NCBI GenBank assembly: GCA_043821445.1
Contig: JBDRCT010000040.1
Span: forward strand, 26,745 to 90,744
Reading direction: 5' to 3'
Source: Candidatus Omnitrophota bacterium
GTDB taxonomy: Bacteria > Omnitrophota > Omnitrophia > Omnitrophales > Aquincolibacteriaceae
Length of the DNA stretch: 64,000 nucleotides
Positions 18,187 through 38,642 of this stretch are shown here, in pieces. Position numbers and translations under genes: made by a program. Each line of letters begins with the position of its first letter. The stretch's first letter is position 1. The notes beneath the pieces were generated by a model. It worked only from the letters and a program-made list of their open reading frames with translations. It made no database searches and had not been told where the DNA came from.

Positions 18187-18307
18187 CGTGTGCGGCATCG
18201 ATCGCAGACCGAAGCCGCCTCTTGGCGAGCCGCGCCTGATTTTCAGGGCGGGACTACAGACCACTGACTACGGTAGACCGATGGGGGAACGGAGGGCGCA
18301 ATGAAGC

Positions 18308-18345
18308 GTACCCTGCAAAGACCCGGTCTTTGCACCACAGACGAT
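18308..18345. repeat. left copy of a ~38-bp direct repeat containing a perfect 10/1/10 palindrome TGCAAAGACC-C-GGTCTTTGCA
   Basis: gtaCCCTGCAAAGACCCGGTCTTTGCACCAcagacgat; palindrome at 18314..18334. Confidence 0.85.
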
Positions 18346-18616
18346 AGTTCACGCGCAAGCGGTTCATCATTCCTGGCCAAAGGATGGGGGTTCATCCTAG
18401 AACAGATCCCCGTTCGCTAATCAACCCTGCTGGATATTATCGCGACACCGAGCAGGACCGATCTAGGCCTTTATGAACTCGGGATTGTATGATGTTCCTT
18501 GTAAATGCTCTTAGAGGACATCTATGGGAAATAGAGTGCAACGCGAGGCAGCACCCTTCGAGAACTCTGACGAGAAATTGTTCTAGCCGACTTTGAGCAG
18601 AAGCCTATTCTGCCTG

Positions 18617-18688
18617 TTGACAATTGACGATGGCATGATAGACTTTCATTGTAAAATAGTTACTCAATAGTAATCCAATGGGTTACTT
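18617..18688 (+). promoter_or_regulatory. putative promoter/operator of AbiEi-1
   Basis: TTGACA at 18617 (TTGACAATTGACG). TAGACT-like -10 at about 18639. GTTACT ... AGTAAT ... GTTACT repeats precede the ATG. Confidence 0.4.
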
Positions 18689-19489
18689 ATGAAGAATATA
18701 AATACATTCAGCGGTTTGGGCCCCAAGGAGGCGGAATTCGTAGCTCGTCTTTCCTATGAAAAAAAGACCATCGTCACGGCGGATGAAATAGACAAATTTC
18801 TTCCGGCCGACTTCAAGTATCGCAGGCAATTTGTTTATACTCTGAAACAGAAGCGGGTACTCACACCCATCAAAGGCGGGGTGTATATTTTTACGCCGCT
18901 TGACTCGATCGCCACGGGAACACGCGTTCATGAGTTCCTGATCCCCGCCGTCTTTCTTCCGCGTGGGAACTATTACCTCGGATACTCGGTGATGTTCAAC
19001 TATTACGGGTTCACCGAACAGATCTTCCAGACGGTCTATGTGATCAATACGTCCCTGTGCAAAGAAAAGATGGTGTGCGGCATCGCGTATAAATTCGTTA
19101 AAGTCCCGGAAAAACGCATGTATGGGATCGAGAAGATCACGGTCCAGGGCGTGACCGTCCCCGTCAGTTCGAAGGAAAGGACTTTGGTGGATCTCATTTA
19201 TTTCAATAAACCGGTTGGCGGAGTTATCCCGGCGGTTCAGATCCTTAAGGACACCGTGAAGCGGAAACAGTGCGATATCGGAAAGCTTGTGGAAATGGCG
19301 TCCCGTTTTCCCAATATTACGGCGCGTAAAAGAATCGGCGTAACGCTTGAAGGGCTTGGTGTCGGATGTGCGGTCCTGAAGCCGCTTATAAAGAGTGTCG
19401 AGAAAACAGCGATCAATTCGCTGGAGGATTCCCGTAAAGGTTCTCTGAACACAACATGGAGGGTCATCGTTGGTGATCCACGAAAATAA
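18689..19489 (+). CDS. AbiEi-family antitoxin / transcriptional regulator
   Basis: About 266 aa with an N-terminal wHTH-like segment. Encoded immediately upstream of, and overlapping, a nucleotidyltransferase AbiEii-like gene. Own TTGACA promoter. Confidence 0.65.
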   Translation: MKNINTFSGLGPKEAEFVARLSYEKKTIVTADEIDKFLPADFKYRRQFVYTLKQKRVLTPIKGGVYIFTPLDSIATGTRVHEFLIPAVFLPRGNYYLGYSVMFNYYGFTEQIFQTVYVINTSLCKEKMVCGIAYKFVKVPEKRMYGIEKITVQGVTVPVSSKERTLVDLIYFNKPVGGVIPAVQILKDTVKRKQCDIGKLVEMASRFPNITARKRIGVTLEGLGVGCAVLKPLIKSVEKTAINSLEDSRKGSLNTTWRVIVGDPRK

Positions 19490-20351
19490 AGACGATTTTC
19501 TGAATGTTCTGAAGCAGACGTCGGCGCAGACCGGGTTCACTCTGTCGCTGATCGAAAAGGACTATTACCTGACGCTTGTTCTATCGCGTCTTCAGGATCT
19601 CAGTTCCAATCTGATCTTCAAGGGCGGGACATGTCTCAATAAGGTCTATTATTCCTATTACCGGCTGAGCGAAGACCTTGACTTCAGCATGCGGCTTCCT
19701 GATGGGAAGGTGACTAAGACCGTGCGGAGCCGGTCCATGAAACCCATCAAGGAGAAGATAGGGGAGTTTGCCGCGCAGTTTGGAATGAAACTCGATACCA
19801 CAAAGAACCCCGGCCGGAACGAATCAAAACAATACGTTTTTGATCTCGCTTATCCTTCTGTAGTACTGCCTCAGGAAGCAAAAATAAGGTTTGAGGTTGG
19901 CCTACGGTTCAACCCGGTTTGCCCGGTTGAAAAACATGAAGTTCAGCATCAATTTACGCATCCTTTTACCGGGGAACGTTTGTTTGACGGCGGTGAGGTG
20001 AATTGCCTGGGCCTCAAAGAGCTGGTCTCCGAAAAGCTGCGTGCTGCCGCTCTCCGTAAAACCATCGCGCCCCGTGATTTTTATGATCTTGATTTCATTC
20101 TACGGAAAAAATTTGACCTCACGGATCGCGAAGTGCTGGAGCTTTTCCGGAAGAAACTCGCGGAAGACGGCGGAGATGCGGATATCACCAGGTACCGGGT
20201 GAATCTTGGAAGACGGCCCGAGGAGATCAAAGACATGAGTGGCAGGATCAAGGAGGAGCTCTTCGAAGTTCTGACCGCTGAAGAGCGCAAGAACTTTGAC
20301 CTTGATACTGCGATCGCACGGCTGAACCAGGCATTTTCCAAGTTGGCGTAA
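19470..20351 (+). CDS. AbiEii/AbiGii-family nucleotidyltransferase toxin
   Basis: IFKGGTCLNKVY ... RLSEDLDFS, the hallmark NTase motif. 293 aa. Confidence 0.8.
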   Translation: MVIHENKDDFLNVLKQTSAQTGFTLSLIEKDYYLTLVLSRLQDLSSNLIFKGGTCLNKVYYSYYRLSEDLDFSMRLPDGKVTKTVRSRSMKPIKEKIGEFAAQFGMKLDTTKNPGRNESKQYVFDLAYPSVVLPQEAKIRFEVGLRFNPVCPVEKHEVQHQFTHPFTGERLFDGGEVNCLGLKELVSEKLRAAALRKTIAPRDFYDLDFILRKKFDLTDREVLELFRKKLAEDGGDADITRYRVNLGRRPEEIKDMSGRIKEELFEVLTAEERKNFDLDTAIARLNQAFSKLA

Positions 20352-20404
20352 TGTCCGGAATATCGAAACATTCGACCTAGGACAAGTGTGGATAATACCG
20401 GACG

Positions 20405-20442
20405 GTGCCCTGCAAAGACCCGGTCTTTGCACCATGGAGGAT
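20405..20442. repeat. right copy of the ~38-bp direct repeat (same palindrome)
   Basis: gtgCCCTGCAAAGACCCGGTCTTTGCACCAtggaggat. Together with 18308 it brackets the AbiE cassette. Confidence 0.85.
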
Positions 20443-20467
20443 GGTGCTTTGCAGCGGTAAATTCTGC

Positions 20468-20534: not shown

Positions 20535-20762
20535 ATGAAACGAAAAGGATTGACTTCCGTTCAGCTAAGGCCAAAGATCGCAAAAATGGTTGCGCTCTTG
20601 ATGAACCGGGAGGGCATGACAAAAACCGAGATCATTAATGAGGCGCTTCGCCGATTTCTTCTTGAACGGGAATTTCAAGGGGTCCGGGAAAAGCTCATTC
20701 CGTATGCCCAAGCCAAGGGCATTTATACCGAAGACGATGTTGACCGGGTCCTTGGTCCATGA
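20535..20762 (+). CDS. small antitoxin-like DNA-binding protein (VapB/RHH-like)
   Basis: 75 aa. MTKTEIINEALRRFL is a ribbon-helix-helix-like segment. ATGA overlap with a PIN-domain gene downstream. Confidence 0.6.
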   Translation: MKRKGLTSVQLRPKIAKMVALLMNREGMTKTEIINEALRRFLLEREFQGVREKLIPYAQAKGIYTEDDVDRVLGP

Positions 20763-21157
20763 GGGTGGTTTTTGACACCAATATCCTTCTCTCGGCTTTT
20801 TTGACCAAGGATGGAGTTGCCCAGCAGCTTTTTGCAAGAGTTATTGCGGGGCACGAGATCCTTGCTTCCGAGTATATCCTTAAGGAGGCTGTTGAAAAAT
20901 TATCCGGCAAACTGAAGGTCCCAGAACGGGAAACAGGCTCCTTTATGCGTTATGTCCGGACCCGTATGACCGTGATCGACCTCTCGGGGAAAACGAGGCG
21001 GGTTGATTTTGAGGACCTTAAAGACGTTCCGATACTTCATCTGCTTGAATTCGCCGGGGTCCATTATTTCGTTACAGGCGATAAAAAACTCCTTGCTCTT
21101 AAAAAGCACCGGCAGACCCTCATCTTAAGTCTCCGAGAAGCCCTCGAGCTTTTATGA
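20759..21157 (+). CDS. vapC: PIN-domain ribonuclease toxin
   Basis: MRVVFDTNILLSAF is the conserved PIN N-terminus. Acidic residues (D, E, D) distributed as in VapC. 132 aa. Confidence 0.8.
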   Translation: MRVVFDTNILLSAFLTKDGVAQQLFARVIAGHEILASEYILKEAVEKLSGKLKVPERETGSFMRYVRTRMTVIDLSGKTRRVDFEDLKDVPILHLLEFAGVHYFVTGDKKLLALKKHRQTLILSLREALELL

Positions 21158-22102: not shown

Positions 22103-22972
22103 TTGGGCAACAATGGAGTTTTTTCAGGTATGACGTTGAATTCCACAGAAGCCAATGTCCCGGCATCCAAGAAATTCTGGAAACGCCAGGAGGCGGGCTT
22201 TGTCTATGACCGCCAATTCCAGAATAAGGTCGGCTGGTATATTGATTGCTCGGAGACGTTCCCGCTGTTGGAACTGGTACAATCTCTGAAGAACATCAAG
22301 GTCCTGGACGTCGGGTGCGGGACCGGGCGGTTCCTGGTGAGATTCCCCGAGCCGAATACGCTGTTCGGCGTAGATCTTTCCGAGAGCATGCTCCAGACCA
22401 CGAAAACGAAATTGACTCGGGCGTCCCTTTTGGCGGCCTCTGCTACCGAGCTTCCTTTTCCTGATCGCTCTTTTGACCTCGTTTATTCCGTTCGTGTAAT
22501 CCAACATATTCGCAATCAACAAAAAATGATCACGGAACTTTCGCGGGTTTGCAAACCGGGTGGGCGTGTGATCCTCGTGGCCTATAATACCTGGTCGCTC
22601 TTGAATCTCTACAAGCAGATCCGCATGAGCTGGGTGGGACGGATTTTGAACATACCGTTCGGTTTTATCCTTAAAGAAAAGTCTTTTTGGGGAAAATGGG
22701 GATTTGAGTATGACAATTACTGCTCCATCACTGAGATCGAACGAATGATGAAAAGGTCCGAGCTTCAACCTTACTACTCCTGCGGCCTTTCATCGGGGAT
22801 GCCTTGGTTCCTCCAGAGTTTCTTCATCGGGAAGATCTTGCATACGATTGCGCCGTGGCTTCTAAGCGGGCTTTTAAATCTCGCCCTTTTTCTGGATCGG
22901 ACGTTGGCGCGAATGGGCCCGTTCAAATACTTCATGGACCTGGTCCTGGTCGTCGGGGAAAAGCCGCGATGA
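22103..22972 (+). CDS. class I SAM-dependent methyltransferase
   Basis: VLDVGCGTGRFL motif I; DLVYSVRVIQH motif II/III region. Confidence 0.75.
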   Translation: MGNNGVFSGMTLNSTEANVPASKKFWKRQEAGFVYDRQFQNKVGWYIDCSETFPLLELVQSLKNIKVLDVGCGTGRFLVRFPEPNTLFGVDLSESMLQTTKTKLTRASLLAASATELPFPDRSFDLVYSVRVIQHIRNQQKMITELSRVCKPGGRVILVAYNTWSLLNLYKQIRMSWVGRILNIPFGFILKEKSFWGKWGFEYDNYCSITEIERMMKRSELQPYYSCGLSSGMPWFLQSFFIGKILHTIAPWLLSGLLNLALFLDRTLARMGPFKYFMDLVLVVGEKPR

Positions 22973-24471
22973 AGCTTCAGGTGCTTTTGAATGCTGCCGT
23001 TCCTGCTTGGCTTCAGATCCTGGATCAGGAAAAGATATCTTACGCGATTTGGGAAGAAGACAGTGTCTTGCCCGTCGGTGAAAACCGATATCCGGTGCTT
23101 ATTCTCACAAAAAAAGAGCCCCGCCGTAAGTCCATGATCCAGGCTCACCTCAAACAGGGCGGGGCCGTCATCGTGGACCTAGACACGCGTTCAGAGGTTC
23201 GGGAACAGGATTTCCCAGGGCGTATTTTTTCTTTGGATATCAGCATTGCGGATATCTGTGAAAGTTGGGCCAGCCGGCGAAAGGATTTTTTCTTTAATGG
23301 TTTTACGGTTTCCGAGACCGTTGCGGCCCAAAAAAAATCCCGATCCAGGGAGGTAGTGAGATGCGCCGTTCAAAAAGCATTCTGGTGTCAGGGACTGCCT
23401 TATGTTCATCTTTGGTATTATCCTCGGGGATATCGAAGCGTTTTTTCGTTCCGCTTTGACATGGATGAATATGATCCTGACGGTCATTCTGCTTTTTGCC
23501 GGCTGCTTGAAAAATATCGAGGGTCGGTAAGTTGTTTTGCCTGTCTCAAGACTTTCGAGTCTCTTGAAGACGAGCTTGGAAAGGTGGTCCGTTCCGGTGT
23601 TGAGGTGGGGTATCATGGGTATATCCATCATATTTATCAAGACTACGCTCAGAATAAACTCGACTTTGAACAGGCGGAGCGGTTATTGCAAAAACATCCT
23701 CGTTCCGTAAAAAGCTTCGCGGGCCCGCACGGCGTCTGGCATCCGACGCTCCAGCGCATTCTCGAAGAACGGAATTATATCTATAGTTCCGAGTTCGGTC
23801 TCGATTATGATAATTTTCCATTTTTTCCGATCGTTCATGGAAAGACATCGAGCGTCACTCAAATCCCTACACATCCCGTTTGTGAAGGAGCGTTTTTTGA
23901 ACGGTATCCTTATCAGGAGTCCATGCTTCGGGATTATTTTAATGCTGTTATTGACCATAAAATCCGGAAGGAAGAGCCAGCCTTGCTTTTTGGGCATCCC
24001 GACCATCGGATTGGAAGGCATCCGGAAATTTTCACGAACATTATGGAAAAAATCGACGAATATCAAGGCGTGTGGAAAACCGAGTTCCGACAGTGGGCAG
24101 GATGGTGGAAGAAAAGGCATGATATTTCCTTCCTTCCTCAGTACGGTAACGGCACGGTCAGGATAGAGGGCTTGGAGAGAGTCGAAGATTGCACGGCTGA
24201 AATCCTTTTTCAGGACGGGCGGCGGGAATTCAGCACCGACTGGTTCCTGCCGATATTTGACAAAGCAAAGAGCGATTGCGTTTCTCCTGTCGTCGAAACG
24301 TTAACCCAGCAAAGTTATTTTAAAAAAATAAAATTCGGACTTAAAAATTGGCTTGATTGGGAAACGAAAACTCCGCCAGAGCTTCTGAGAATTACAGGAG
24401 TCCGAACGCTGGTGAAGAGAGTGTTTCGGGCTTTAGCGGGCTGTTTTATGCAAAAGGCGAAAAAAATATGA
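22969..24471 (+). CDS. hypothetical protein, possibly polysaccharide-deacetylase (NodB/CE4)-like
   Basis: ATG 22969 overlaps the upstream stop (ATGA). FRFDMDEY and GYHGYIHH loosely resemble NodB motifs 1 and 2. 500 aa. The assignment is weak. Confidence 0.3.
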   Translation: MKLQVLLNAAVPAWLQILDQEKISYAIWEEDSVLPVGENRYPVLILTKKEPRRKSMIQAHLKQGGAVIVDLDTRSEVREQDFPGRIFSLDISIADICESWASRRKDFFFNGFTVSETVAAQKKSRSREVVRCAVQKAFWCQGLPYVHLWYYPRGYRSVFSFRFDMDEYDPDGHSAFCRLLEKYRGSVSCFACLKTFESLEDELGKVVRSGVEVGYHGYIHHIYQDYAQNKLDFEQAERLLQKHPRSVKSFAGPHGVWHPTLQRILEERNYIYSSEFGLDYDNFPFFPIVHGKTSSVTQIPTHPVCEGAFFERYPYQESMLRDYFNAVIDHKIRKEEPALLFGHPDHRIGRHPEIFTNIMEKIDEYQGVWKTEFRQWAGWWKKRHDISFLPQYGNGTVRIEGLERVEDCTAEILFQDGRREFSTDWFLPIFDKAKSDCVSPVVETLTQQSYFKKIKFGLKNWLDWETKTPPELLRITGVRTLVKRVFRALAGCFMQKAKKI

Positions 24472-25208
24472 GCCTGAGTGCGGTATTGATCACGCTTAAC
24501 GAAGAAAGGAAGCTTCCGGAATGCTTGCGTCGGCTAGCTTTTGCTGACGAGATTGTTGTTGTGGATTCTTGCAGTGAAGACCAGACCGTTCAAATTGCTG
24601 AAAAAGCCGGCGCTAAAGTCTTCCAGCGTACATTCGATTCTTTTTCCGGGCAGAAGAATTATGGGATCCAGATGGCCGGAGGAGACTGGATCCTGCTCAT
24701 TGATGCTGACGAGCTTGTCACCCCGGAGTTGCGCGATGAAATACTAAGCGCTATTCGATCTCAGGAATATCGTAGCGCATTTACGCTTCGGCGGGTTAAT
24801 CAGATTTTTGGTGCGGTGTTGCGTCACGGTGCGAGTGGTGAAGACCATCCTATTCGGCTGGTCCGTAAAGGGGCAGGGGTTTTTGAAGGATTGGTTCATG
24901 AAAAACTGCGCATCGAGGGGGAGATTGGGGACCTTCGCGGGGAGTTAACGCACATTACCTATCAAACGTTGGAAGAATATTTTTTAAAATTTAACCAGTT
25001 CTCTTCCTTGGATGCCCGAGAATTCCTGCGCCAAGAAAGAAAGCCGCCTTCTTGGCTTCAGATTTTGGTGAAGCCTGCCGCTGAGTTCTTTTTTTATTAT
25101 ATCGTGAAAGCAGGCTTTCTGGACGGTTGGCCAGGTTTCCAGTATCAGGTTCTCTCCTCGTTCTATGTTTTTATAAAGCATGCTAAAGCGAAGAATCTAA
25201 AAAAATGA
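24468..25208 (+). CDS. GT2 glycosyltransferase, WaaE/KdtX-like (LPS core-type)
   Basis: MSLSAVLITLNEERKL ... VVVDSCSEDQT ... LLIDADE. Paralog at 59297. ATGA overlap upstream. Confidence 0.75.
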   Translation: MSLSAVLITLNEERKLPECLRRLAFADEIVVVDSCSEDQTVQIAEKAGAKVFQRTFDSFSGQKNYGIQMAGGDWILLIDADELVTPELRDEILSAIRSQEYRSAFTLRRVNQIFGAVLRHGASGEDHPIRLVRKGAGVFEGLVHEKLRIEGEIGDLRGELTHITYQTLEEYFLKFNQFSSLDAREFLRQERKPPSWLQILVKPAAEFFFYYIVKAGFLDGWPGFQYQVLSSFYVFIKHAKAKNLKK

Positions 25209-26659
25209 ATCCTTTATTTTTAAAACTAAAAAACATCGCTGCTTTTGAGTGGGCCATTTTTTTTCTGATGGCTTTGTGGACCGCGCTGACGTTTTCCATC
25301 GCCCTAACCGAGATCACATTCGTTTGCGCTTTGATCTGCTGGGTCGGATGGCATATTCAGCAAAAAAAAGGCATCTGCCAAAATGCGCCGGCAGGAGGGA
25401 AAATCGACTGGGCATTCTGGATGCCGCTCGCACTCTTTTTTGTGTGCGTCCTGAGCTCATTTTTCACCTCGGAATATCCAAAACAAAGCCTCCGGGGCCT
25501 ATACAAGATCGCAAAGCCGCTTCTAGCCTTCATCATGGCGATCGATCTCTTCAGGGACACAAGATCCCAGAAACGCTTCGACGGTATTTTTTTAGCAACC
25601 TTTCTTTTGGTGACGATCGATTGTTCGATCCAATACGCCTTCGGGAAGGATATCCTCCGGGGTTTCGCGGCCGAGCAATCCGCGGCAGGGATACGGCTCA
25701 TAGGCCCTTTCGGCAATTTCGCAAAAATGGCCACCTACCTCGTATTGGTGATCCCTGTTTTTGGGATGCGTTTCTGGAGTGATTACACGCGATCGGAACA
25801 GCGCAAAAGATCTTTTTATAGTCTGGCTCTTGCGATAGCCGGCCTTGTGCTTCTCTATCTGACCCGTTGCCGCGGCCCTGTGGTGGCGCTTGCTTTTAGT
25901 TTTGGAATACTCTTCATTTACAAGCGCTGGTTCAAGGTGGTGGGGATCGCTTTGTTGCTCGGCCTTGCTCTGTTGGCGGTCGTGCCGCGAGGAGTGATCA
26001 TTCATGCGAATAAAGATTCTAGAGAGCAGTCTTTCGTCGAACGGCTTTGTCTTTGGCAGCGAGCTTTCGACGTGATCAAAGCCAAACCGTTAACGGGCAC
26101 GGGAATTAATACCTATGACAAGGCGCATGCAAAATACGACACGCAACAGCGCAAAAACCTTGCGTCGTTACGGGGGCCAACAACCAGTGTCCGGCAAGAG
26201 CAGAATGGCTCTGTTAGTTTCATAACAGGGGAAACGATTTACACATCAGACGTAAAACAAACCAATATTCGGCTTGGCGATAAAAAGTACAACCTTTTTA
26301 GAGACGCAAAGGGCGAATATTATATCTATGATACTTTACTTGTTCGCGGTTATTACGCCCATAACGGCTATCTTCAACTCGCGGCGGAGATCGGGCTTCC
26401 CGGGATTTTCTGTTTTCTTTGGTTCCTTTTCATGTTCTTCCGGAAAGTCCTGGGAGGCCTGGGGGCTATTCGAGGCTCTCCCGAGGAATATACGCGTTTG
26501 GGAATTCTGACGGGCCTCCTGGCCTTTTTGATCTATGCCATTGGTGATAACAATCTTCAAAGTCCGCCTTCCCTGATGTTTTTCTGGTTCTCGGCGGGCA
26601 TTTTGATGGCAAGGCAAAGCGCCGCTCCGTCGGAAATCATTTCATCAAAAAAACCATAA
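25205..26659 (+). CDS. O-antigen ligase / polymerase family membrane protein (Wzy_C domain)
   Basis: About 10 TM helices. AHNGYLQLAAEIGLPG Wzy_C/WaaL signature. ATGA overlap upstream. Confidence 0.7.
   Translation: MNPLFLKLKNIAAFEWAIFFLMALWTALTFSIALTEITFVCALICWVGWHIQQKKGICQNAPAGGKIDWAFWMPLALFFVCVLSSFFTSEYPKQSLRGLYKIAKPLLAFIMAIDLFRDTRSQKRFDGIFLATFLLVTIDCSIQYAFGKDILRGFAAEQSAAGIRLIGPFGNFAKMATYLVLVIPVFGMRFWSDYTRSEQRKRSFYSLALAIAGLVLLYLTRCRGPVVALAFSFGILFIYKRWFKVVGIALLLGLALLAVVPRGVIIHANKDSREQSFVERLCLWQRAFDVIKAKPLTGTGINTYDKAHAKYDTQQRKNLASLRGPTTSVRQEQNGSVSFITGETIYTSDVKQTNIRLGDKKYNLFRDAKGEYYIYDTLLVRGYYAHNGYLQLAAEIGLPGIFCFLWFLFMFFRKVLGGLGAIRGSPEEYTRLGILTGLLAFLIYAIGDNNLQSPPSLMFFWFSAGILMARQSAAPSEIISSKKP
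26530..26628. repeat. left copy of a ~95-bp diverged direct repeat (native 3' end of the Wzy-like gene)
   Basis: gatctatgccattggtgataacaatcttcaaagtccgccttccctgatgtttttctggttctcggcgggcattttgatggcaaggcaaagc. Confidence 0.85.
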
Positions 26660-26704
26660 GTGGCACAGTCTTAGGAATTCAAGGTCGACTCTGTTGCGTT
26701 GGGC

Positions 26705-26768
26705 TTGACAATCTATAACTCATAATTTAACATATAAGTATACAAAACAGTATACTTATAGGTGGAAT
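26705..26768 (+). promoter_or_regulatory. putative promoter/operator of AbiEi-2
   Basis: TTGACA at 26705. After a 17-nt spacer, TAACAT as a -10 candidate. Perfect inverted repeat AAGTATAC-aaaaca-GTATACTT at 26735..26757. AGGTGG SD. Confidence 0.45.
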
Positions 26769-27326
26769 ATGAACCATTCAGAGCGTTTTAAAATACTCAT
26801 GGAATCCGGCCGGACGGTGTTTACGCCTCTGGACATGCGCATGTTATGGCGGGTAAATACGCTGAACGCCAAGATCAGTATCGTGCGTATGGTAGAAAAA
26901 GGTCTTGTGGTCCGGTTGGCCACAGGCTTTTACGCCCTGAATGACCGTTACAACCGGTACGAGTTTGCCAATAGGATCCTGTCGCCCTCCTATGTGTCCT
27001 TCCAGTCCGCGCTTTTTCATGCGGGAATCAATTTTCAGGCCCGTGACGAGATCGGATCGGTGGCCCTGCGGGATCATCGGAAGAAGGTCGGGAATACGCT
27101 CTATACCCATGCGGCCATGAAACAAGATCTTTTTTTTAATATCAAAGGGGTCGTGACGCGTGAGGGGGTAGCGATGGCATTGCCCGAGCGCGCGATCCTG
27201 GACAGCTTCTACTTCGGGTATCTTCCGGACATTGATGACGCTTCAAAGCTGAATAAGACATTTCTTGAGGAACTCAGCGCTCTTTACCCGAAAACGGTCC
27301 AAAAAAAGGTGAAGGGGCTTCTATGA
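26769..27326 (+). CDS. AbiEi-family antitoxin / regulator (second copy)
   Basis: 185 aa. Precedes and overlaps (ATGA) an AbiEii-like gene. Own TTGACA promoter with a palindromic operator. Confidence 0.6.
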   Translation: MNHSERFKILMESGRTVFTPLDMRMLWRVNTLNAKISIVRMVEKGLVVRLATGFYALNDRYNRYEFANRILSPSYVSFQSALFHAGINFQARDEIGSVALRDHRKKVGNTLYTHAAMKQDLFFNIKGVVTREGVAMALPERAILDSFYFGYLPDIDDASKLNKTFLEELSALYPKTVQKKVKGLL

Positions 27327-28018
27327 GCCGCCTTTTTGATCCGGATGTTCACAAGCGGTATCTGTCGCTTTTGCTGACGGAACTGGCCAAAGCTTTCCCC
27401 GAGAAGATCGCCTTTAAAGGCGGGACCTGCGCTTATTTTTTTTATAACCTTCCGAGGTTTTCGTTCGATCTTGATTTTGACATGCTCCGGGAGTTCAGCG
27501 CCGGGGACGCGGACAGGTTCCGTGAAGTCCTTTCGCGGCATGGGCAAGCGAAGGAATTTCGGGACAAGCAGAACACGCTTTTCTGCCTTTTTGATTACGG
27601 AAAGGGACATCCCAACATCAAGATCGAACTGGGCCGGCGCGTATGGAAAAATAACGTTTATAAACCGGTCTGGTTTTTAGGAGTGCCTCTTGTCATCGCC
27701 GATGAACGAACGGTGCTGACCAATAAACTTGTTGCCCTGACCGACCGGAAGACCGCGGTTGCGAGGGATCTTTATGACAGTTGGTATTTTTTGAAGGCGG
27801 GATTTCCCGTGAGCGAGGCTCTTGTCATGGAGCGTACGGGAAAGGATCTTGGAGCGTACCTTAAAGGGGCGATGGGCTTTATCAGAAGGACCTATACCCC
27901 GCGCAATGTCCTGCACGGGCTGGGTGACGTGCTGGATGAGAAGCAAAAGTCGTGGGCCAAAGACCATCTTGTTCTTGAAACGATCCTGGAGATGAAGAAA
28001 CGGATCACACCGCTATGA
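27323..28018 (+). CDS. AbiEii-family nucleotidyltransferase toxin (second copy)
   Basis: IAFKGGTCAYFF ... RFSFDLDFD NTase motif. Confidence 0.8.
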   Translation: MSRLFDPDVHKRYLSLLLTELAKAFPEKIAFKGGTCAYFFYNLPRFSFDLDFDMLREFSAGDADRFREVLSRHGQAKEFRDKQNTLFCLFDYGKGHPNIKIELGRRVWKNNVYKPVWFLGVPLVIADERTVLTNKLVALTDRKTAVARDLYDSWYFLKAGFPVSEALVMERTGKDLGAYLKGAMGFIRRTYTPRNVLHGLGDVLDEKQKSWAKDHLVLETILEMKKRITPL

Positions 28019-28034
28019 AAAATTATGACTTTCT

Positions 28035-28124
28035 GATCGATGCCTTCGGCGATAACAATCTCCAAAGTCCGCCCTCCCTGATGTTTTTCTGGTTCTCGGC
28101 GGGCATTTTGATGGCAAGGCAGAA
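28035..28124. repeat. right copy of the ~95-bp direct repeat, downstream of AbiE pair 2
   Basis: gatcgatgccttcggcgataacaatctccaaagtccgccctccctgatgtttttctggttctcggcgggcattttgatggcaaggcagaac. About 8 mismatches against the left copy. Confidence 0.85.
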
Positions 28125-28141
28125 CAATCAAAAGGCGCTCC

Positions 28142-29002
28142 ATGCTTGAGTTGACGGTCCCAATGATCTTCGCGATCGCGGTAATCGCTTTTTTTTGTGA
28201 ATATATGGATTCCACGCTCGGGATGGGCTACGGAACGACGATGACGCCTGTCCTCATGCTTTTTGGCTTCGCGCCTCTCGAGATTGTTCCGGCAGTCCTG
28301 CTTTCCGAGCTTGTTACGGGAGTGCTTGCCGGTGCGATGCACCACCGCGAAGGGAATGTGAATTTCCACTTCAAAGTCCTGAATTTTCAAAGGATCAAGA
28401 ACAGTCTCAAGCTTCCCGAGCCGGTCAACCCCGATCATCACACCTACGGGATCCAGGTCTCGACCCATCTTAAAGTGGTCCTTCTGCTTTTATCCGCAAC
28501 GATCCTCGGAGCAACCAGCGCTGTCTTTACGGCCAAGGTCCTTCCCAAGCCATGGACCTCCCTTTATATCAGCGGGATGGTCATCGCCATGGGCGTTCTG
28601 ATCCTGACCTGTTTTAACCGGCAATTCAAATATTCCTGGAAGAGAATCATCGGTCTCGGATTGCTCGCGTCTTTCAACAAAGGGCTTACCGGCGGGGGAT
28701 ACGGGCCGCTCGTGGTCAGCGGACAAATGCTTTCGGGCGTCGAAGGTAAAAATGCCATCGGGATCACATCCTTGGCCGAGGGCATTACTTGCGCCCTAGG
28801 TGTTTTGATCTATTTTTTTACCGCTCATAATCGGATCGACTGGCGGCTTGCCCCCATCCTTATTGCCGGAGCAGTTTGTTCGGTCCCGCTCTCGGTGAAA
28901 AGCGTCAAGATCATGAACCCGAAACTTTTAAAAGCGCTTATTGCCATTCTAACGATCATTTTGGGAGTCCTCACGCTCCTTAAAACATTGAAAAATTTTT
29001 GA
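28142..29002 (+). CDS. TauE/SafE (DUF81) family anion exporter
   Basis: Two homologous 4-TM halves. GMGYGTTMTPVLM and LTGGGYGPLVV motifs. Confidence 0.75.
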   Translation: MLELTVPMIFAIAVIAFFCEYMDSTLGMGYGTTMTPVLMLFGFAPLEIVPAVLLSELVTGVLAGAMHHREGNVNFHFKVLNFQRIKNSLKLPEPVNPDHHTYGIQVSTHLKVVLLLLSATILGATSAVFTAKVLPKPWTSLYISGMVIAMGVLILTCFNRQFKYSWKRIIGLGLLASFNKGLTGGGYGPLVVSGQMLSGVEGKNAIGITSLAEGITCALGVLIYFFTAHNRIDWRLAPILIAGAVCSVPLSVKSVKIMNPKLLKALIAILTIILGVLTLLKTLKNF

Positions 29003-29047
29003 CTCGTGATGATGACTGCGTAAAAGATTATAGGGAAGGAAAAAAGC

Positions 29048-29857
29048 ATGTTCACGTTGCTTAAAAGAATCATCCAACATTTTTTTTTACTGACACAGCT
29101 CGTCCGGGTCGACTTGACCGGGAAATACAAGACGTCGGTTCTGGGGATGTTGTGGATTTTTCTGAACCCGCTTATTCTTTTTTTTCTCTACATGTTTATT
29201 TTCTCAATCGTTCTAAAAGTCCGCTTTCCGGAACAACAAAGTGTCTTTTTTTACGGGCTCAACCTTTTTTGCGGTTTGATCGCCTGGAACGCATTCGCCG
29301 AAAGCATCCAGCGGTCATCTTCTGTGATTATGAATCACGCTCACCTTATAAAGCGCTCTCTTTTTCCGACCGAGATCCTGGGGATATCAATCTCGCTTTC
29401 AACGATCATCCGCCTCATTATTGAAATGGCGCTTTTTATCGTGTTGCTCACGGCTATTGGGTGGCAGATCACGCCGGCTTTCTTATGGCTGCCTTTTCTC
29501 GTCATTCTTCAATTGCTTTTTACCACAGCTCTTGCCTGGCTTGTGTCCGCGATGACCGTTCTTGTGAGGGATCTCGCGCATCTTGTGGGACCGCTGCTTA
29601 CAGTGTGGTTCTTCATGACGCCTGTCGTGTATCCGGAGACCATGGCAAAGTCGCTTGGGGGATGGCAATGGCTGGCATTTCTTATTCACATCAATCCCAT
29701 GGCAAAGCTTATCAGTACCTATCGCGGTATTTTGCTCTTTGGTTATTTTGATTTTACCCCGAACGTAATCTTATTAACGGTTTTTGTGCTGGTTTTCTTC
29801 CTGTTGAGCGCCGCAGTTTTCCAGAAACTTCAGCCGGAGATTATCGAAAACTTATGA
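29048..29857 (+). CDS. wzm: ABC-2 type polysaccharide export permease
   Basis: 269 aa with 6 TM helices. ABC-2 signature region. Followed by an overlapping ATPase gene. Confidence 0.8.
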   Translation: MFTLLKRIIQHFFLLTQLVRVDLTGKYKTSVLGMLWIFLNPLILFFLYMFIFSIVLKVRFPEQQSVFFYGLNLFCGLIAWNAFAESIQRSSSVIMNHAHLIKRSLFPTEILGISISLSTIIRLIIEMALFIVLLTAIGWQITPAFLWLPFLVILQLLFTTALAWLVSAMTVLVRDLAHLVGPLLTVWFFMTPVVYPETMAKSLGGWQWLAFLIHINPMAKLISTYRGILLFGYFDFTPNVILLTVFVLVFFLLSAAVFQKLQPEIIENL

Positions 29858-31077
29858 AACCTGTGATCTGCCTTCAGGGCGTTTCCAAGAAGTTCAAGAT
29901 CTACGATAATTCGTGGGGGCACTTGAAAGAGTTCGCGACTTTTGGCCTGATCAAGGATCACGAGGTTTTTTGGGCTCTCCGTGATATCGACCTCTCCGTG
30001 CAGCGGGGAGAAACGGTCGGAGTTATTGGTATGAATGGGAGCGGGAAGAGCACGCTTCTTCAATTGGCATCGGGCATCTTGAGGCCTACCGAGGGAGCGG
30101 TATCCATCCCCGCGCGGATCGCAACGCTGCTTGAGCTTGGCGGACTTTTCCATCCCGAGCTCAGTGGGTTGGAGAATGTTTTTCTCGCGGCAGGCATCCT
30201 TGGCTATCGCCGGAAAGAGATCCAGACAAAACTGGACGAGGTCATCGCCTTCGCGGATATCGGTCACTTTATCAATCATCCCGTCAAGATCTACTCTCAG
30301 GGGATGTTCCTCAGGCTGGCCTTTGCGGTGGTCGTGTGCCTTGATCCCGCGGCGGTTCTTATCGACGAGGTGCTGGCTGTCGGAGATGTTCTTTTTCAGC
30401 AGAAATGCTATGAGAGGATCGGAAGATTCGCTGAGGAAGGAAAAGCCGTGCTTCTCGTATCCCATAACACCGAGGAGATCAAAAAACTTACCGACCGCTG
30501 CGTTCTTCTGGACGGCGGAAAAATAGCCGCGGAGGGAAATCCGTGGGAAGTGACAGAGGTCTATCACAAAAAGCTGAATGAGCTTCGGATCGCGAGGGAG
30601 GGTTCGTCCCGCGCGTACACCATGAAAGCGGAAAGCTTCTTTACGGAAGAGGCGGAACTGATGCGTGTCCGGATCCTTAAAGGGGAACGTGAGATCACCG
30701 GGAATATTCAAGTCGGTGAAGAGGTCGAAGTGGAAGTGATGCTGCGGTTCAAAGTCGCGCTTCATGAATCCACGATTGGAATTTTTATTACCGATCTTTA
30801 CGGGTCTACTGTCACGGGAACTCACACAGGTTTCCACGGTATCAAGTTGGACAAGGCCATTCCAGGAGGCGTCGTGACGGCCCGGTTTTCGATCGCAGCC
30901 CATCTCAAGCCTGATCCTTACAGTATCACGGTTCGGGTACTTGAATATCCCGAGAAGGGCACCTCTCGAACGGTGATGAAGATGAACGGGGCGGCCGTCT
31001 TCAATGTGGCCGGCGACGCACCCTTTTACGGTGTGACCAACCTTTGCCGTTCGATAGAAATACTCAAAAACGCTTGA
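29854..31077 (+). CDS. wzt: ABC transporter ATP-binding protein with C-terminal extension (glycan-binding-domain candidate)
   Basis: Walker A GMNGSGKST; LSGG-like signature; Walker B LIDEVLAVGD. About 150 aa of C-terminal extension beyond the NBD. Confidence 0.85.
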   Translation: MKPVICLQGVSKKFKIYDNSWGHLKEFATFGLIKDHEVFWALRDIDLSVQRGETVGVIGMNGSGKSTLLQLASGILRPTEGAVSIPARIATLLELGGLFHPELSGLENVFLAAGILGYRRKEIQTKLDEVIAFADIGHFINHPVKIYSQGMFLRLAFAVVVCLDPAAVLIDEVLAVGDVLFQQKCYERIGRFAEEGKAVLLVSHNTEEIKKLTDRCVLLDGGKIAAEGNPWEVTEVYHKKLNELRIAREGSSRAYTMKAESFFTEEAELMRVRILKGEREITGNIQVGEEVEVEVMLRFKVALHESTIGIFITDLYGSTVTGTHTGFHGIKLDKAIPGGVVTARFSIAAHLKPDPYSITVRVLEYPEKGTSRTVMKMNGAAVFNVAGDAPFYGVTNLCRSIEILKNA

Positions 31078-37187: not shown

Positions 37188-38642
37188 ATGAAGGTGATGT
37201 TGATAAGTTCTTTGCCCAAGGAGGGCGCGTATGCCACCGCTGATTGGAACCCGACTCCGGATTCTGCGGGAGAGTTTCCTCCGATCGGGCTGAGCTATAT
37301 AGCAGGCTATCTCATTGATCGCACCCATCATGAGGTTGTCGTTCTGGATGCCGTGTCCGAGCATCTCGATTATCCGCAAATAGAGGCACGCCTGTTGGCG
37401 TTCAGGCCAGATATCGTGGGCACTACGATATTCACGCCGACATTTTACGGTAATCTGGTCCTGGCTAAATCAGTAAAGCGCGTACTTCCAAAGTGTTACG
37501 TCTGTATGGGGGGCGTACAGCATGTACGAATGTTTTTGGAAGAGACGTTGAATCATCCGGAGATAGATTTACTTGTGCGCGGTGAAGGAGAAACGATCTT
37601 CGCCAATCTGTTAGATGCTCTTGAAAACGATCGTCCATTGGATACCGTGGACGGCATAAGTTTCAAGCGGAATGGCAAAACTATTTCACCCGGAAGGGAG
37701 GGGTATGTTGACGATATTAATTCGTTGCCCTCTCCCGCTTTCAACCTCTTGCCGTTTAAGCTGTATAAAAACAGAGTAGGCACCGGCAAGCAGATCGGCG
37801 TTGTTCTCACATCGAGAGGTTGTCCCTATGTTTGCACATTCTGCGATCATCCTTACCGCACTTTCAGGAAATATTCTTTAGATCGCATTATGAATGAAAT
37901 GAATTTTTTTTATGAAAGGGGAGTTCGAGAGTTTGTTTTCTTTGATGATATGTTCAATGTTACATCGGATAGAGCGATAGAAATAAGTGAGGGGATCATC
38001 CGTCGATTTCCAGGCATTGTATGGTCTTTCCGTGGAAGGGCCGACCAGATCACTCAGGAAATGATAGAAAAAGTTAAGAAGGCCGGATGCACGCAAGCGA
38101 TGTTTGGATTGGAAGCAGCTAAGGATGAGGATCTGAAAGCGATAAAGAAAAATATCACGATCGAAAAGTTTTTAAACGGTATCAGGCTGTGCAAGAAGAA
38201 CGGTCTCAGCACGAGTGCGAATTATATTATTGGTCTTCCGACACACAAAAGCCGCAAGGACGTACTGGACATGCTGGACTTTGCGATTAAGAGCGGGACC
38301 GATTACGCCCAGTTCAACATATTGTTGCCCTACGCCGGCACAGAAATCTATGCTGAAGCAGTAAGGCAAAATATTATTCCTGGGGATTTTTGGAAAAATT
38401 ACATCTTAAATCCCCAGCCGAATGCTTATATTCCGGTATTGGAGCAGCATTTAAGTCGTAAAGAGCTGAGCGAGTTGCTCCTGCTGTCTTTCCGAAAGTT
38501 TTATCTTCGTCCATCAAAAATACTGGAGAAGGTGCTCAGCGTAAGAAGTTTTTCGCAGTTCATGATGTCGCTGCGCGGAATGTTCGTGGTCATGGGCTTT
38601 GGCGGTTTCCGAAGAAAGAAAACAGGATCTCTAGCGACTTAG
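37188..38642 (+). CDS. B12-binding-domain radical SAM protein (class B)
   Basis: N-terminal B12-binding-like segment. LTSRGCPYVCTFCDH CxxxCxxC motif. Confidence 0.8.
   Translation: MKVMLISSLPKEGAYATADWNPTPDSAGEFPPIGLSYIAGYLIDRTHHEVVVLDAVSEHLDYPQIEARLLAFRPDIVGTTIFTPTFYGNLVLAKSVKRVLPKCYVCMGGVQHVRMFLEETLNHPEIDLLVRGEGETIFANLLDALENDRPLDTVDGISFKRNGKTISPGREGYVDDINSLPSPAFNLLPFKLYKNRVGTGKQIGVVLTSRGCPYVCTFCDHPYRTFRKYSLDRIMNEMNFFYERGVREFVFFDDMFNVTSDRAIEISEGIIRRFPGIVWSFRGRADQITQEMIEKVKKAGCTQAMFGLEAAKDEDLKAIKKNITIEKFLNGIRLCKKNGLSTSANYIIGLPTHKSRKDVLDMLDFAIKSGTDYAQFNILLPYAGTEIYAEAVRQNIIPGDFWKNYILNPQPNAYIPVLEQHLSRKELSELLLLSFRKFYLRPSKILEKVLSVRSFSQFMMSLRGMFVVMGFGGFRRKKTGSLAT

What the first reader, a model, noticed from the sequence alone, without database searches (positions are those of the whole stretch)
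26530..28124. AbiEi/AbiEii pair 2 is an insertion bracketed by ~95-bp direct repeats that duplicate the 3' end of the Wzy-like gene
The last ~95 bp of the O-antigen-ligase-like gene (26530-26628) reappear with about 8 mismatches at 28035-28124. The second copy lies just after the AbiEii stop and before the TauE gene. The only material between the copies is a TTGACA promoter, a palindromic operator and the AbiEi/AbiEii pair. This is the footprint of a cassette that carried or duplicated its target end when it integrated. The mismatches show the event is not recent.
Basis: seen in the sequence. Interest (0 to 1): 0.7.

Follow-up and report, generated by a model that had tools for sequence, protein, structure and literature searches.

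The report
Displaced gene end beside inserted AbiE pair
A toxin-antitoxin (AbiE) gene pair was recombined into a sugar-polymer gene cluster of an uncultured Omnitrophota bacterium together with the end of a foreign copy of the neighbouring gene, pushing the resident gene's old end downstream as a fossil; this is a real but fairly ordinary recombination scar.

Summary
The repeat is real: 26524-26619 and 28029-28124 match without gaps at offset 1505, with 9 mismatches in 96 nt (86/93 by the repeat finder). Only two copies exist in the window.

The cassette is an insertion. In L003, L017 and L014 the Wzy-like gene runs directly into TauE with one copy of the segment.

It is not a target-site duplication, and the mismatches do not date the event. 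The downstream copy plus its tail (QNNQKALHA*, stop overlapping the TauE ATG) is the ancestral Wzy-TauE junction, as in L011 and L003. The upstream copy continues into a different but also authentic Wzy tail (SAAPSEIISSKKP*, like P0006 and P0002). The two copies differ mainly at synonymous sites (dN 0.03, dS 0.41, p about 0.01). They are therefore the ends of two functional alleles.

The AbiE module (about 26694-28013) occurs elsewhere at 80-88% identity without Wzy fragments or flanking repeats.

Best model: one-sided homologous recombination in the conserved Wzy 3' segment brought in a foreign Wzy end plus AbiE and displaced the resident end. Decayed Wzy ends upstream of TauE recur in L013, L022 and L026.

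Interest is low to moderate.

The parts
25205..26659 (+). Intact Wzy-like (O-antigen-ligase family) gene, 484 aa, 'allele A'.
   Evidence: Pfam Wzy_C E=7.6e-19. It is 100% identical to P0001 from a Candidatus Omnitrophota MAG. The closest other homologue is 72% identical.
26524..26619 (+). Repeat copy 1. It encodes the conserved last transmembrane segment FLIYAIGDNNLQSPPSLMFFWFSAGILMARQ (Wzy codons 441-471).
   Evidence: The conserved residues, including the invariant Tyr, are intact.
26620..26659 (+). Tail 1 (SAAPSEIISSKKP*), the variable C-terminal tail of allele A. It is not repeated.
   Evidence: It matches the tails of P0006/P0026 (NASDPEAVSSK) and P0002 (GASLTEVFLS) in register; 65 of 5000 shuffles reach the score.
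26660..26693 (+). 34-nt spacer of unknown origin between the Wzy stop and the conserved AbiE module.
   Evidence: It is not conserved with any other AbiE locus or with the sequence downstream of Wzy in L010 or L064.
26694..26768 (+). AbiE promoter and operator. The -35 TTGACA is at 26705-26710 and the -10 TAACAT at 26728-26733. The inverted repeat is 26725-26743 / 26750-26768.
   Evidence: Promoter scan gives 10/12 matches. The block is nearly invariant across five AbiE loci, starting at the -35 box.
26769..27326 (+). AbiEi antitoxin/repressor, 185 aa.
   Evidence: PADLOC AbiEi PDLC02255 E=1.4e-27, full length. Pfam and NCBIfam give only weak hits.
27323..28018 (+). AbiEii nucleotidyltransferase toxin, 231 aa. 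Its start overlaps the AbiEi stop (ATGA).
   Evidence: Pfam PF08843 E=2.1e-14. PADLOC AbiEii E=1.1e-43. Homologues at 85-92% identity come mostly from unnamed metagenome contigs, and the named hits are Candidatus Omnitrophota/Omnitrophica.
28014..28028 (+). Right-hand junction or filler (CTATGAAAAATTATGAC region). Similarity to other AbiE modules ends at about 28012. The window's AbiEii is one codon longer than its relatives.
   Evidence: Alignment A2. blastn end points are 28005-28012. Microhomology to the Wzy sequence preceding copy 1 is 1-3 nt at most.
28029..28124 (+). Repeat copy 2. It is the displaced 3' end of the resident Wzy 'allele B' (FLIDAFGDNNLQ...ARQ), a fossil.
   Evidence: One continuous blastn alignment, window 28029-29003 to L003 3674-4649, is 81.7% identical and starts exactly at 28029. 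The invariant Tyr is replaced by Asp.
28125..28148 (+). Tail 2 (NNQKALHA*). Its stop overlaps the TauE start (ATGCTTGA). This is the ancestral Wzy-TauE junction.
   Evidence: It is almost identical to L011 (NNQKVLHA*, same ATGCTTGAGTTGAC junction) and related to L003/L017. No shuffle out of 5000 reaches the score.
28015..28148 (+). Open 44-codon frame through the fossil. Its ATG overlaps the AbiEii stop (ATGA) and its stop overlaps the TauE ATG. It may be translated as a coupling bridge; this is inferred only.
   Evidence: Translation. No NCBIfam family hit.
28142..29002 (+). TauE/SafE-family anion exporter gene, the conserved right-hand neighbour.
   Evidence: Pfam TauE E=1.1e-28. It is 79-90% aa identical in the 14 closest metagenome loci (L013-L026, L031) and 40-60% in the more distant ones.

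Best explanation
The structure is a recombination scar of the 'C-terminal displacement' type.

The ancestral arrangement was Wzy(allele B)-TauE, with the Wzy stop overlapping the TauE start. DNA from a related Omnitrophota lineage then entered. It carried the 3' part of a different Wzy allele (allele A, with its own variable tail) followed by a compact, integrase-less AbiEi/AbiEii module. The host's homologous-recombination machinery integrated it, using the highly conserved last transmembrane segment of Wzy as the only homology.

The route was one of two. Either a circularised fragment integrated by a single crossover, or a linear fragment joined by homologous recombination on the left and an illegitimate join on the right at 28028/28029.

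The result is an intact Wzy gene ending in tail 1, then the AbiE operon, then the displaced last 40 codons of the old allele still fused to TauE.

Shown: the repeat, the empty sites, the authenticity of both tails, the selection signature, and the module boundaries. Inferred: the recombination route; that AbiE is an autoregulated toxin-antitoxin/abortive-infection module; and that TauE is now co-transcribed from the AbiE promoter, possibly coupled translationally through the open fossil frame.
For: 1.
2. Empty sites with a single copy exist in L003, L017 and L014. Window 28029-29003 aligns as one block to the intact Wzy-end + TauE of L003 and L017.
3. Tail 2 and the ATGCTTGA overlap are reproduced in L011 and L003.
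4. Tail 1 is homologous to the tails of P0006, P0026 and P0002. Those Wzy genes are not followed by TauE.
5. Copy 1 against copy 2 gives dN 0.028 and dS 0.405, with 5 synonymous and 3 non-synonymous nucleotide differences (Fisher p=0.008). This is divergence under purifying selection, meaning two functional alleles.
6. The AbiE module (26694 to about 28012) is a discrete unit, 80-88% identical in L056-L063 in unrelated contexts, with no Wzy fragment and no flanking repeat.
7. Neither the cassette nor the neighbouring genes scanned against Pfam (22804-31077, except the ORF at 22103-22972, which was not scanned) encode an integrase or transposase.
8. The same kind of scar recurs independently. 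There are decayed Wzy 3' ends upstream of TauE in L013, L022 and L026, and a TauE 5' stub after Wzy in L011.
9. There is experimental precedent. Single crossover of a circularised fragment gave 109-950-bp duplications of the homologous locus in E. coli (PMC3240628). Displacement leaving orphaned 3' ends is proposed for T6SS and Rhs loci (PMC5361080).
Against: No donor and no close (>90% nt) relative was found, so the left crossover and the donor/recipient assignment of the Wzy body cannot be determined.

The selection test rests on only 31 codons.

The two copies are each other's closest relatives: 9 mismatches in the 96 nt, against 9-21 mismatches over shorter 53-97-nt alignments to the orthologues (83-89% identity for the best of them). 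This would also fit an in-genome origin.

Microhomology at the illegitimate junction is minimal.

The circular (single-crossover) and linear (illegitimate-end) routes cannot be told apart.

The source is a metagenome-assembled genome and I could not inspect reads.
Confidence: 0.6

Rival explanations
1. The structure is the remnant of a site-specific integrative element. The element targeted the 3' end of Wzy and carried a replacement gene end in its attP, so the two repeats would be attL and attR. The integrase was then lost, or acts in trans, as in a cis-mobilisable element.
For: Direct repeats of tens of bases that restore the interrupted gene's end are typical of tyrosine-recombinase islands (general knowledge). 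The repeat contains a 47-nt exact core. AbiE systems are known cargo that stabilises integrative elements (PMC11062541, abstract listed). AbiE pair 1 in the same window is also an insertion with a perfect 27-nt direct repeat.
Against: There is no integrase between the repeats or among the neighbouring genes scanned against Pfam. The same AbiE module elsewhere has no such repeats and no Wzy fragment. None of the other Wzy-downstream contexts examined shows a recombinase; ORF tables were read for L001, L005 and L009 and precomputed Pfam gene calls for L010, L012 and L064. The right end of the repeat coincides with the conserved/variable boundary of the protein family, as expected for allele homology rather than for an att site. 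No phage, plasmid or viral-contig relatives were found.
Confidence: 0.15
2. The repeat arose in place. The host's own Wzy end was duplicated when the cassette inserted, by a long target duplication or a tandem duplication, and the copies have since diverged.
For: The two copies are more similar to each other than to any sampled orthologue. The non-functional copy has lost the invariant Tyr, as expected for decay.
Against: The copies continue into two different tails, and each is matched by tails of real Wzy genes elsewhere. The cassette-side tail therefore cannot be read-through into insert DNA. Differences are mainly synonymous (dN/dS about 0.07, p about 0.01), whereas a dead copy should accumulate changes at dN/dS near 1. 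No known transposition mechanism makes 96-bp target duplications (general knowledge). No terminal inverted repeats are conserved across AbiE loci.
Confidence: 0.1
3. The structure is an assembly artefact. The MAG contig would be a chimera of two strains joined through the shared segment.
For: The source is a metagenome-assembled genome. One related contig (L003/L004) is visibly an inverted self-duplication.
Against: A join through a shared repeat yields one copy, not two copies 1.5 kb apart. The longest exact run is only 47 nt. The AbiEii-to-copy-2 junction is unique sequence. Analogous fossil ends occur in independent assemblies (L013, L022, L026, L011).
Confidence: 0.06

Closest known systems
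C-terminal displacement with orphaned 3' ends in Rhs, CDI and T6SS effector loci (Jackson et al. 2009; Kirchberger et al. 2017, PMC5361080)
   Same: An incoming segment consists of the end of the conserved core, a new variable tip and accompanying gene(s). It displaces the resident tip, which stays downstream as an orphan that still begins with a piece of the conserved core. The proposed route is a homologous anchor plus an illegitimate end. Here the repeat ends exactly at the conserved/variable boundary ('ARQ') of the Wzy family.
   Different: Wzy is a polysaccharide polymerase/ligase-family membrane protein, not a polymorphic toxin. The variable tip is only a 9-14-residue tail. The accompanying genes are an AbiE toxin-antitoxin pair, not a cognate immunity gene. 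Only one displaced end is present, not an array.
Single-crossover (Campbell-type) integration and homology-facilitated illegitimate recombination (de Vries & Wackernagel 2002; Amarir-Bouhram et al. 2011, PMC3240628)
   Same: Foreign DNA with homology at one side only is captured. Single crossover of a circularised fragment produced 109-950-bp duplications of the homologous segment flanking the insert. That matches a 96-bp duplication flanking a 1.4-kb insert.
   Different: Those are laboratory events in E. coli and in naturally competent bacteria. Competence or conjugation in Omnitrophota is unknown. The homology here is short (96 nt, with a 47-nt exact run) and diverged.
AbiE type IV toxin-antitoxin / abortive infection systems (Dy et al. 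2014, PMC3985639; Beck et al. 2020, PMC7319586)
   Same: It is a bicistronic operon with overlapping genes. AbiEi sits upstream of a DUF1814 nucleotidyltransferase, AbiEii. Inverted repeats overlap the promoter, as expected for AbiEi autoregulation.
   Different: It is a short variant (AbiEi 185 aa, AbiEii 231 aa). AbiEi is below the Pfam and NCBIfam cut-offs. No activity was tested. It sits inside a polysaccharide biosynthesis operon rather than on a plasmid, phage or island.
Mosaic O-antigen/capsule loci with gene remnants at junctions (general knowledge of Enterobacteriaceae and pneumococcal cps loci)
   Same: The same flanking genes carry variable gene content, with remnants of displaced genes at junctions. 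Here L005 and L009 carry other cargo at the same junction, and L013, L022, L026 and L011 carry fossils.
   Different: The cargo at this junction is a defence/TA module, and no IS elements are involved.

Membership tests
AbiE type IV toxin-antitoxin system | A DUF1814/AbiEii nucleotidyltransferase toxin gene | tested here: met
   Pfam PF08843 E=2.1e-14, above the cut-off. PADLOC AbiEii E=1.1e-43 over the full length.
AbiE type IV toxin-antitoxin system | An AbiEi antitoxin/regulator gene immediately upstream, in a bicistronic and overlapping arrangement | tested here: met
   PADLOC AbiEi E=1.4e-27 over the full length. There is a 4-nt ATGA overlap at 27323-27326. Pfam and NCBIfam hits are below their cut-offs.
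AbiE type IV toxin-antitoxin system | Inverted repeats in the promoter for AbiEi autoregulation | tested here: met
   A 19-nt inverted repeat lies at 26725-26743 / 26750-26768 and overlaps the -10 box. It is conserved in five loci. Binding was not tested.
AbiE type IV toxin-antitoxin system | Toxicity of AbiEii, neutralisation by AbiEi, and phage defence | not testable with these tools
   This needs expression assays.
Transposon/IS insertion with target-site duplication | A short (2-15 bp) exact target duplication, terminal inverted repeats and a transposase | tested here: not met
   The repeat is 96 nt with 9 mismatches. The only end-spanning inverted repeat (I5, 18 nt, 83% complementary) is not conserved in other AbiE loci. 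There is no transposase ORF.
Integrase-mediated integrative element (attL/attR) | A tyrosine or serine recombinase gene within or next to the element | tested here: not met
   Only AbiEi and AbiEii lie between the repeats. The scanned neighbours are a deacetylase, GT2, Wzy, TauE and ABC transporter genes.
Integrase-mediated integrative element (attL/attR) | The same att repeat travels with the element in other genomes | tested here: not met
   The AbiE module in L056-L063 has no Wzy-like segment and no flanking direct repeat of 16 nt or more that brackets the module.
Integrase-mediated integrative element (attL/attR) | The element restores the 3' end of the interrupted gene | tested here: met
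   Copy 1 plus tail 1 gives a full-length Wzy with an authentic tail. This feature is shared with the recombination model.
C-terminal displacement / orphan 3' ends | The displaced end begins inside the conserved core, and the repeat stops at the conserved/variable boundary | tested here: met
   Identity ends at the 'ARQ' codon, after which tails differ across all 11 aligned orthologous loci and across the listed homologue C-termini.
C-terminal displacement / orphan 3' ends | The host gene is a polymorphic toxin with a cognate immunity gene | tested here: not met
   The gene belongs to the Wzy_C O-antigen ligase family. The cargo is a TA pair.
Single-crossover / homology-facilitated illegitimate recombination product | One homologous junction, one non-homologous junction with little or no homology, and duplication or deletion of the anchor | tested here: inconclusive
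   The duplicated anchor is present. The right junction at 28028/28029 has at most 1-3 nt of microhomology. The left crossover cannot be located because no close relative is available.

The most novel reading that the evidence does not exclude
Integrase-less AbiE modules in Omnitrophota might spread between polysaccharide gene clusters as 'homology-arm cassettes'. In this reading they travel with a captured, conserved gene end (here the last transmembrane segment of Wzy). They integrate through host recombination and displace the resident end, as Rhs/T6SS tips do. The displaced end would then be kept open (ATG overlapping the AbiEii stop, stop overlapping the TauE ATG) because it now couples TauE translation to the AbiE operon. 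Three observations keep this open. Both AbiE pairs in this window are insertions bracketed by direct repeats. Wzy-end fossils recur upstream of TauE. The 44-codon frame is intact.
Probability: 0.1. Interest if true: 0.55.

Novelty: new member of a known kind. Interest (0 to 1): 0.3.

Why it matters
It is a clean, datable-in-principle example of how small defence/toxin-antitoxin modules that lack any mobility gene get into the middle of housekeeping operons in an uncultured phylum. Host recombination uses a short conserved coding segment as the only homology. This leaves a displaced gene end that automated annotation would miss or miscall.

It also carries a practical warning. Mismatches between such repeats can predate the event, because they are allelic differences, and must not be read as its age.

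The Wzy-TauE junction appears to be a recurrent recombination point in Omnitrophota surface-polysaccharide loci. This is relevant to how these ultra-small, possibly host-attached bacteria vary their surfaces.

None of this overturns current understanding.

Tried and rejected
- Exact-protein look-ups for the window's Wzy and TauE found nothing.
- The closest AbiEii relative (P0114, 92%) has no DNA on file.
- I searched for flanking direct repeats or Wzy fragments around the same AbiE module in L056-L063 and found none. This rejects 'the cassette always carries this repeat'.
- I tested whether tail 1 is read-through into insert DNA. It is not, because it matches real Wzy tails.
- I looked for a second Wzy paralogue in the window as a source of copy 2. 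The equal-length ORF 37188-38642 is unrelated, and the core pattern occurs only twice.
- I tried to locate a left crossover by region-wise identity to 44 homologues and by blastn to all loci. There is no resolution, because the best relatives are about 72-82% identical.
- Composition gives only a weak GC3 step: 0.47-0.56 for the deacetylase/GT2/Wzy block against 0.61-0.63 for AbiE/TauE/Wzt.
- Rfam and tRNA scans found nothing. The only hit is a sub-threshold archaeal snoRNA match at 27988-28038, treated as chance.
- There are no relatives of AbiEii in the plasmid, phage or IMG/VR collections.
- The end-spanning 18-nt inverted repeat I5 was rejected as chance, because it is not conserved in other loci.
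- My first regular expression for tail extraction was wrong and was redone.
Full report
**Observation**

The repeat finder reports one family of two copies, 26524-26616 and 28029-28121. It is 93 nt long, 92% identical, with a spacing of 1505.

An ungapped comparison at that offset extends the match to 26524-26619 against 28029-28124. There are 9 mismatches in 96 nt, and similarity collapses on both sides. The longest exact run is 47 nt. The chance probability of such an alignment is about 1e-42. A 42-nt core pattern occurs exactly twice in the window and never in shuffles.

The repeat also does not reach the end of the gene. It covers Wzy codons 441-471 of 484, and the final 13 codons and the stop (26620-26659) are unique.

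Gene identities hold:
- 25205-26659 is Wzy_C (E=7.6e-19).
- 27323-28018 is AbiEii.
- 28142-29002 is TauE.
- 26769-27326 is AbiEi by PADLOC (1.4e-27), and AbiEii scores 1.1e-43 there.

The source is a Candidatus Omnitrophota MAG (P0001, 100% identity).

**Reading frames**

In the Wzy frame, copy 1 encodes FLIYAIGDNNLQSPPSLMFFWFSAGILMARQ and continues as SAAPSEIISSKKP* (tail 1). Copy 2 encodes FLIDAFGDNNLQSPPSLMFFWFSAGILMARQ and continues as NNQKALHA* (tail 2). The tail 2 stop overlaps the TauE start (ATGCTTGA).

Copy 2 lies in an open 44-codon frame, 28015-28148. Its ATG overlaps the AbiEii stop (ATGA).

**Is it an insertion?**

Yes. Nine genome loci and 43 metagenome loci were recovered with Wzy and TauE as queries.

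In L003, L017 and L014 the Wzy gene is followed directly by TauE with one copy of the segment. Window 28029-29003 aligns as a single block (81.7% over 978 nt) to the uninterrupted Wzy-end + TauE of L003 and L017. The block begins exactly at 28029.

In L011 the Wzy gene ends NNQKVLHA*. It has the same ATGCTTGAGTTGAC junction as the window's copy 2.

Copy 2 plus tail 2 is therefore the ancestral Wzy end in its original place next to TauE.

**Is it a duplication of the host's own gene end?**

No. Three lines of evidence point the same way.

First, tail 1 is also a genuine Wzy tail.
- In register after the 'ARQ' codon it matches the tails of P0006/P0026 (NASDPEAVSSK) and P0002 (GASLTEVFLS). Only 65 of 5000 shuffles reach the score.
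- Tail 2 matches P0011, and no shuffle out of 5000 reaches that score.
- The nucleotide alignment agrees.
- Alleles with tail-1-type ends (L064, L010) are not followed by TauE. Tail-2-type ends are followed by TauE.

Second, the differences between the copies look allelic.
- They fall in seven codons, of which five are synonymous.
- Nei-Gojobori dN is 0.028 and dS is 0.405.
- Fisher p is 0.008.
- A dead copy decaying in place would not show this.
- The differences are mostly those between two functional alleles and predate the event, so they do not date it.
- The one clearly deleterious change is Tyr to Asp at a position where all 11 orthologues have T. It lies in the fossil copy.

Third, the right end of the repeat coincides with the family-wide boundary between the conserved last helix and the hypervariable tail. 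This is what two alleles would give.

**The cargo**

The same AbiE module recurs in other contexts:
- 88% identity in L063 (window 26694-28005).
- 81% in L057-L061, where it sits between CysNC and an epimerase gene.
- 80% in L056, where it sits next to a restriction-modification system.

Conservation starts at the -35 TTGACA and includes the inverted repeat over the -10. It ends at the AbiEii stop.

None of those loci has a Wzy fragment or a bracketing direct repeat. The cassette and the neighbouring genes scanned against Pfam contain no integrase or transposase. No relatives occur in the plasmid, phage or viral-contig collections.

Two short pieces remain unexplained. They are the 34-nt spacer 26660-26693 and the roughly 15-nt filler 28014-28028. 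At the filler, the window's AbiEii runs one codon longer than its relatives.

**Mechanism**

The simplest account is one-sided homologous recombination. Incoming DNA of the form [Wzy allele A 3' part - tail 1 - spacer - AbiE] paired with the resident allele B in the conserved segment.

Integration could have occurred in two ways. One is a single crossover of a circularised fragment. In E. coli this experimentally gives 109-950-bp duplications of the homologous segment (PMC3240628). The other is a homologous left end plus an illegitimate right end at 28028/28029.

Either route leaves the resident end displaced downstream. This is formally the 'C-terminal displacement' pattern proposed for Rhs and T6SS effector loci, which leaves orphaned 3' ends (PMC5361080).

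I cannot separate the two routes. I also cannot say how much of the Wzy body is foreign. The best relatives are only 72-82% identical, and region-wise identities give no breakpoint. A weak GC3 step fits a foreign left block but is not decisive.

**Recurrence**

The junction is a recombination point in this lineage.
- L005/L031 carry Rrf2, ABC-ATPase and GTPase genes between Wzy and TauE. L009 carries CysD and CysNC there.
- L013 has a decayed Wzy end, with an in-frame stop, between a GDP-mannose dehydratase gene and TauE.
- L022 has that dehydratase's own 3' remnant plus the Wzy remnant.
- L026 has a shorter Wzy remnant.
- L011 has the mirror image, a 27-nt TauE 5' stub after Wzy.

These remnants derive from a different tail type (L014-like), so they are independent of the window's event.

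**Function after the event (inferred)**

AbiE is expected to be an autoregulated type IV toxin-antitoxin / abortive-infection module (PMC3985639, PMC7319586).

No terminator-like site separates AbiEii from TauE. TauE is therefore probably co-transcribed. The open fossil frame could preserve translational coupling. This is untested.

**Rivals**

- A decayed integrase-type element (about 0.15). It lacks any recombinase, and the repeat does not travel with the module.
- In-place duplication with later divergence (about 0.10). The two authentic tails and the low dN/dS contradict it.
- An assembly chimera (about 0.06). A join through a repeat gives one copy, not two, and analogous scars occur in independent assemblies.

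**Verdict**

It is wrong on the duplication and on the meaning of the mismatches.

This is a new example of a known kind of recombination scar, with an AbiE module as cargo, in an uncultured phylum. Interest is about 0.3.

Noticed in passing
window 18207-20465 (repeats at 18311-18337 and 20408-20434): AbiE pair 1 (18689-20351) is also an insertion. The related locus L012 has only about 63 nt between the DUF2079 gene and the VapB-like promoter, where the window has about 2.26 kb. The insert carries a perfect 27-nt direct repeat containing a 9-bp hairpin (CCCTGCAAAGACCCGGTCTTTGCACCA) at both sides. Both AbiE pairs in this window are therefore bracketed by direct repeats.
   Followed up: partly
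window 18187-18688: There is about 500 nt without a convincing ORF upstream of AbiE pair 1. It gave no Rfam or tRNA hit. Its origin is unknown.
   Followed up: partly
window 20535-21157: A small VapB/RHH-like ORF (weak hits only) is followed by a PIN_3 toxin (E=1.5e-7). The PIN gene's stop overlaps the start of the next glycosyltransferase gene. The same pair sits at the same place in L012. A third toxin-antitoxin module therefore lies inside this polysaccharide cluster.
   Followed up: partly
L011 7480-7510: The Wzy gene is followed by only the first 27 nt or so of TauE (MLELTIHMI), and then an unrelated epimerase-like gene. This is a mirror-image fossil of the same junction.
   Followed up: partly
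L013 1714-1920; L022 5780-6000; L026 about 150-250: Decayed Wzy 3' ends, with stops and indels, lie directly upstream of TauE with no Wzy gene nearby. L022 additionally keeps the 3' remnant of the GDP-mannose dehydratase gene that is intact in L013. These are nested fossils of successive replacements.
   Followed up: partly
L008 1587-4328: A related MAG has a DUF2079-like membrane protein gene and a Phd-like/PIN toxin-antitoxin pair inserted between the GT2 and Wzy genes. Those two genes are adjacent in the window.
   Followed up: no
L003/L004 (CAZPCF010000022.1): The contig is an inverted duplication of itself: GT2-Wzy-TauE, then the same genes reversed. This is probably an assembly artefact.
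   Followed up: no
window 26150-26290 (Wzy residues 316-362): A segment of about 47 residues in the Wzy-like protein is present in only some alleles, such as P0002-P0007 and P0011. It is absent from many others, and where present it is poorly conserved (26-49% identity).
   Followed up: no
window 26524-26619 vs 28029-28124: At seven of the nine differing positions copy 1 has A or T where copy 2 has G or C. The other two are an A/T difference and one in the opposite direction. This fits the lower GC3 of the deacetylase/GT2/Wzy block (0.47-0.56) compared with AbiE/TauE/Wzt (0.61-0.63). The sample is too small to interpret.
   Followed up: partly
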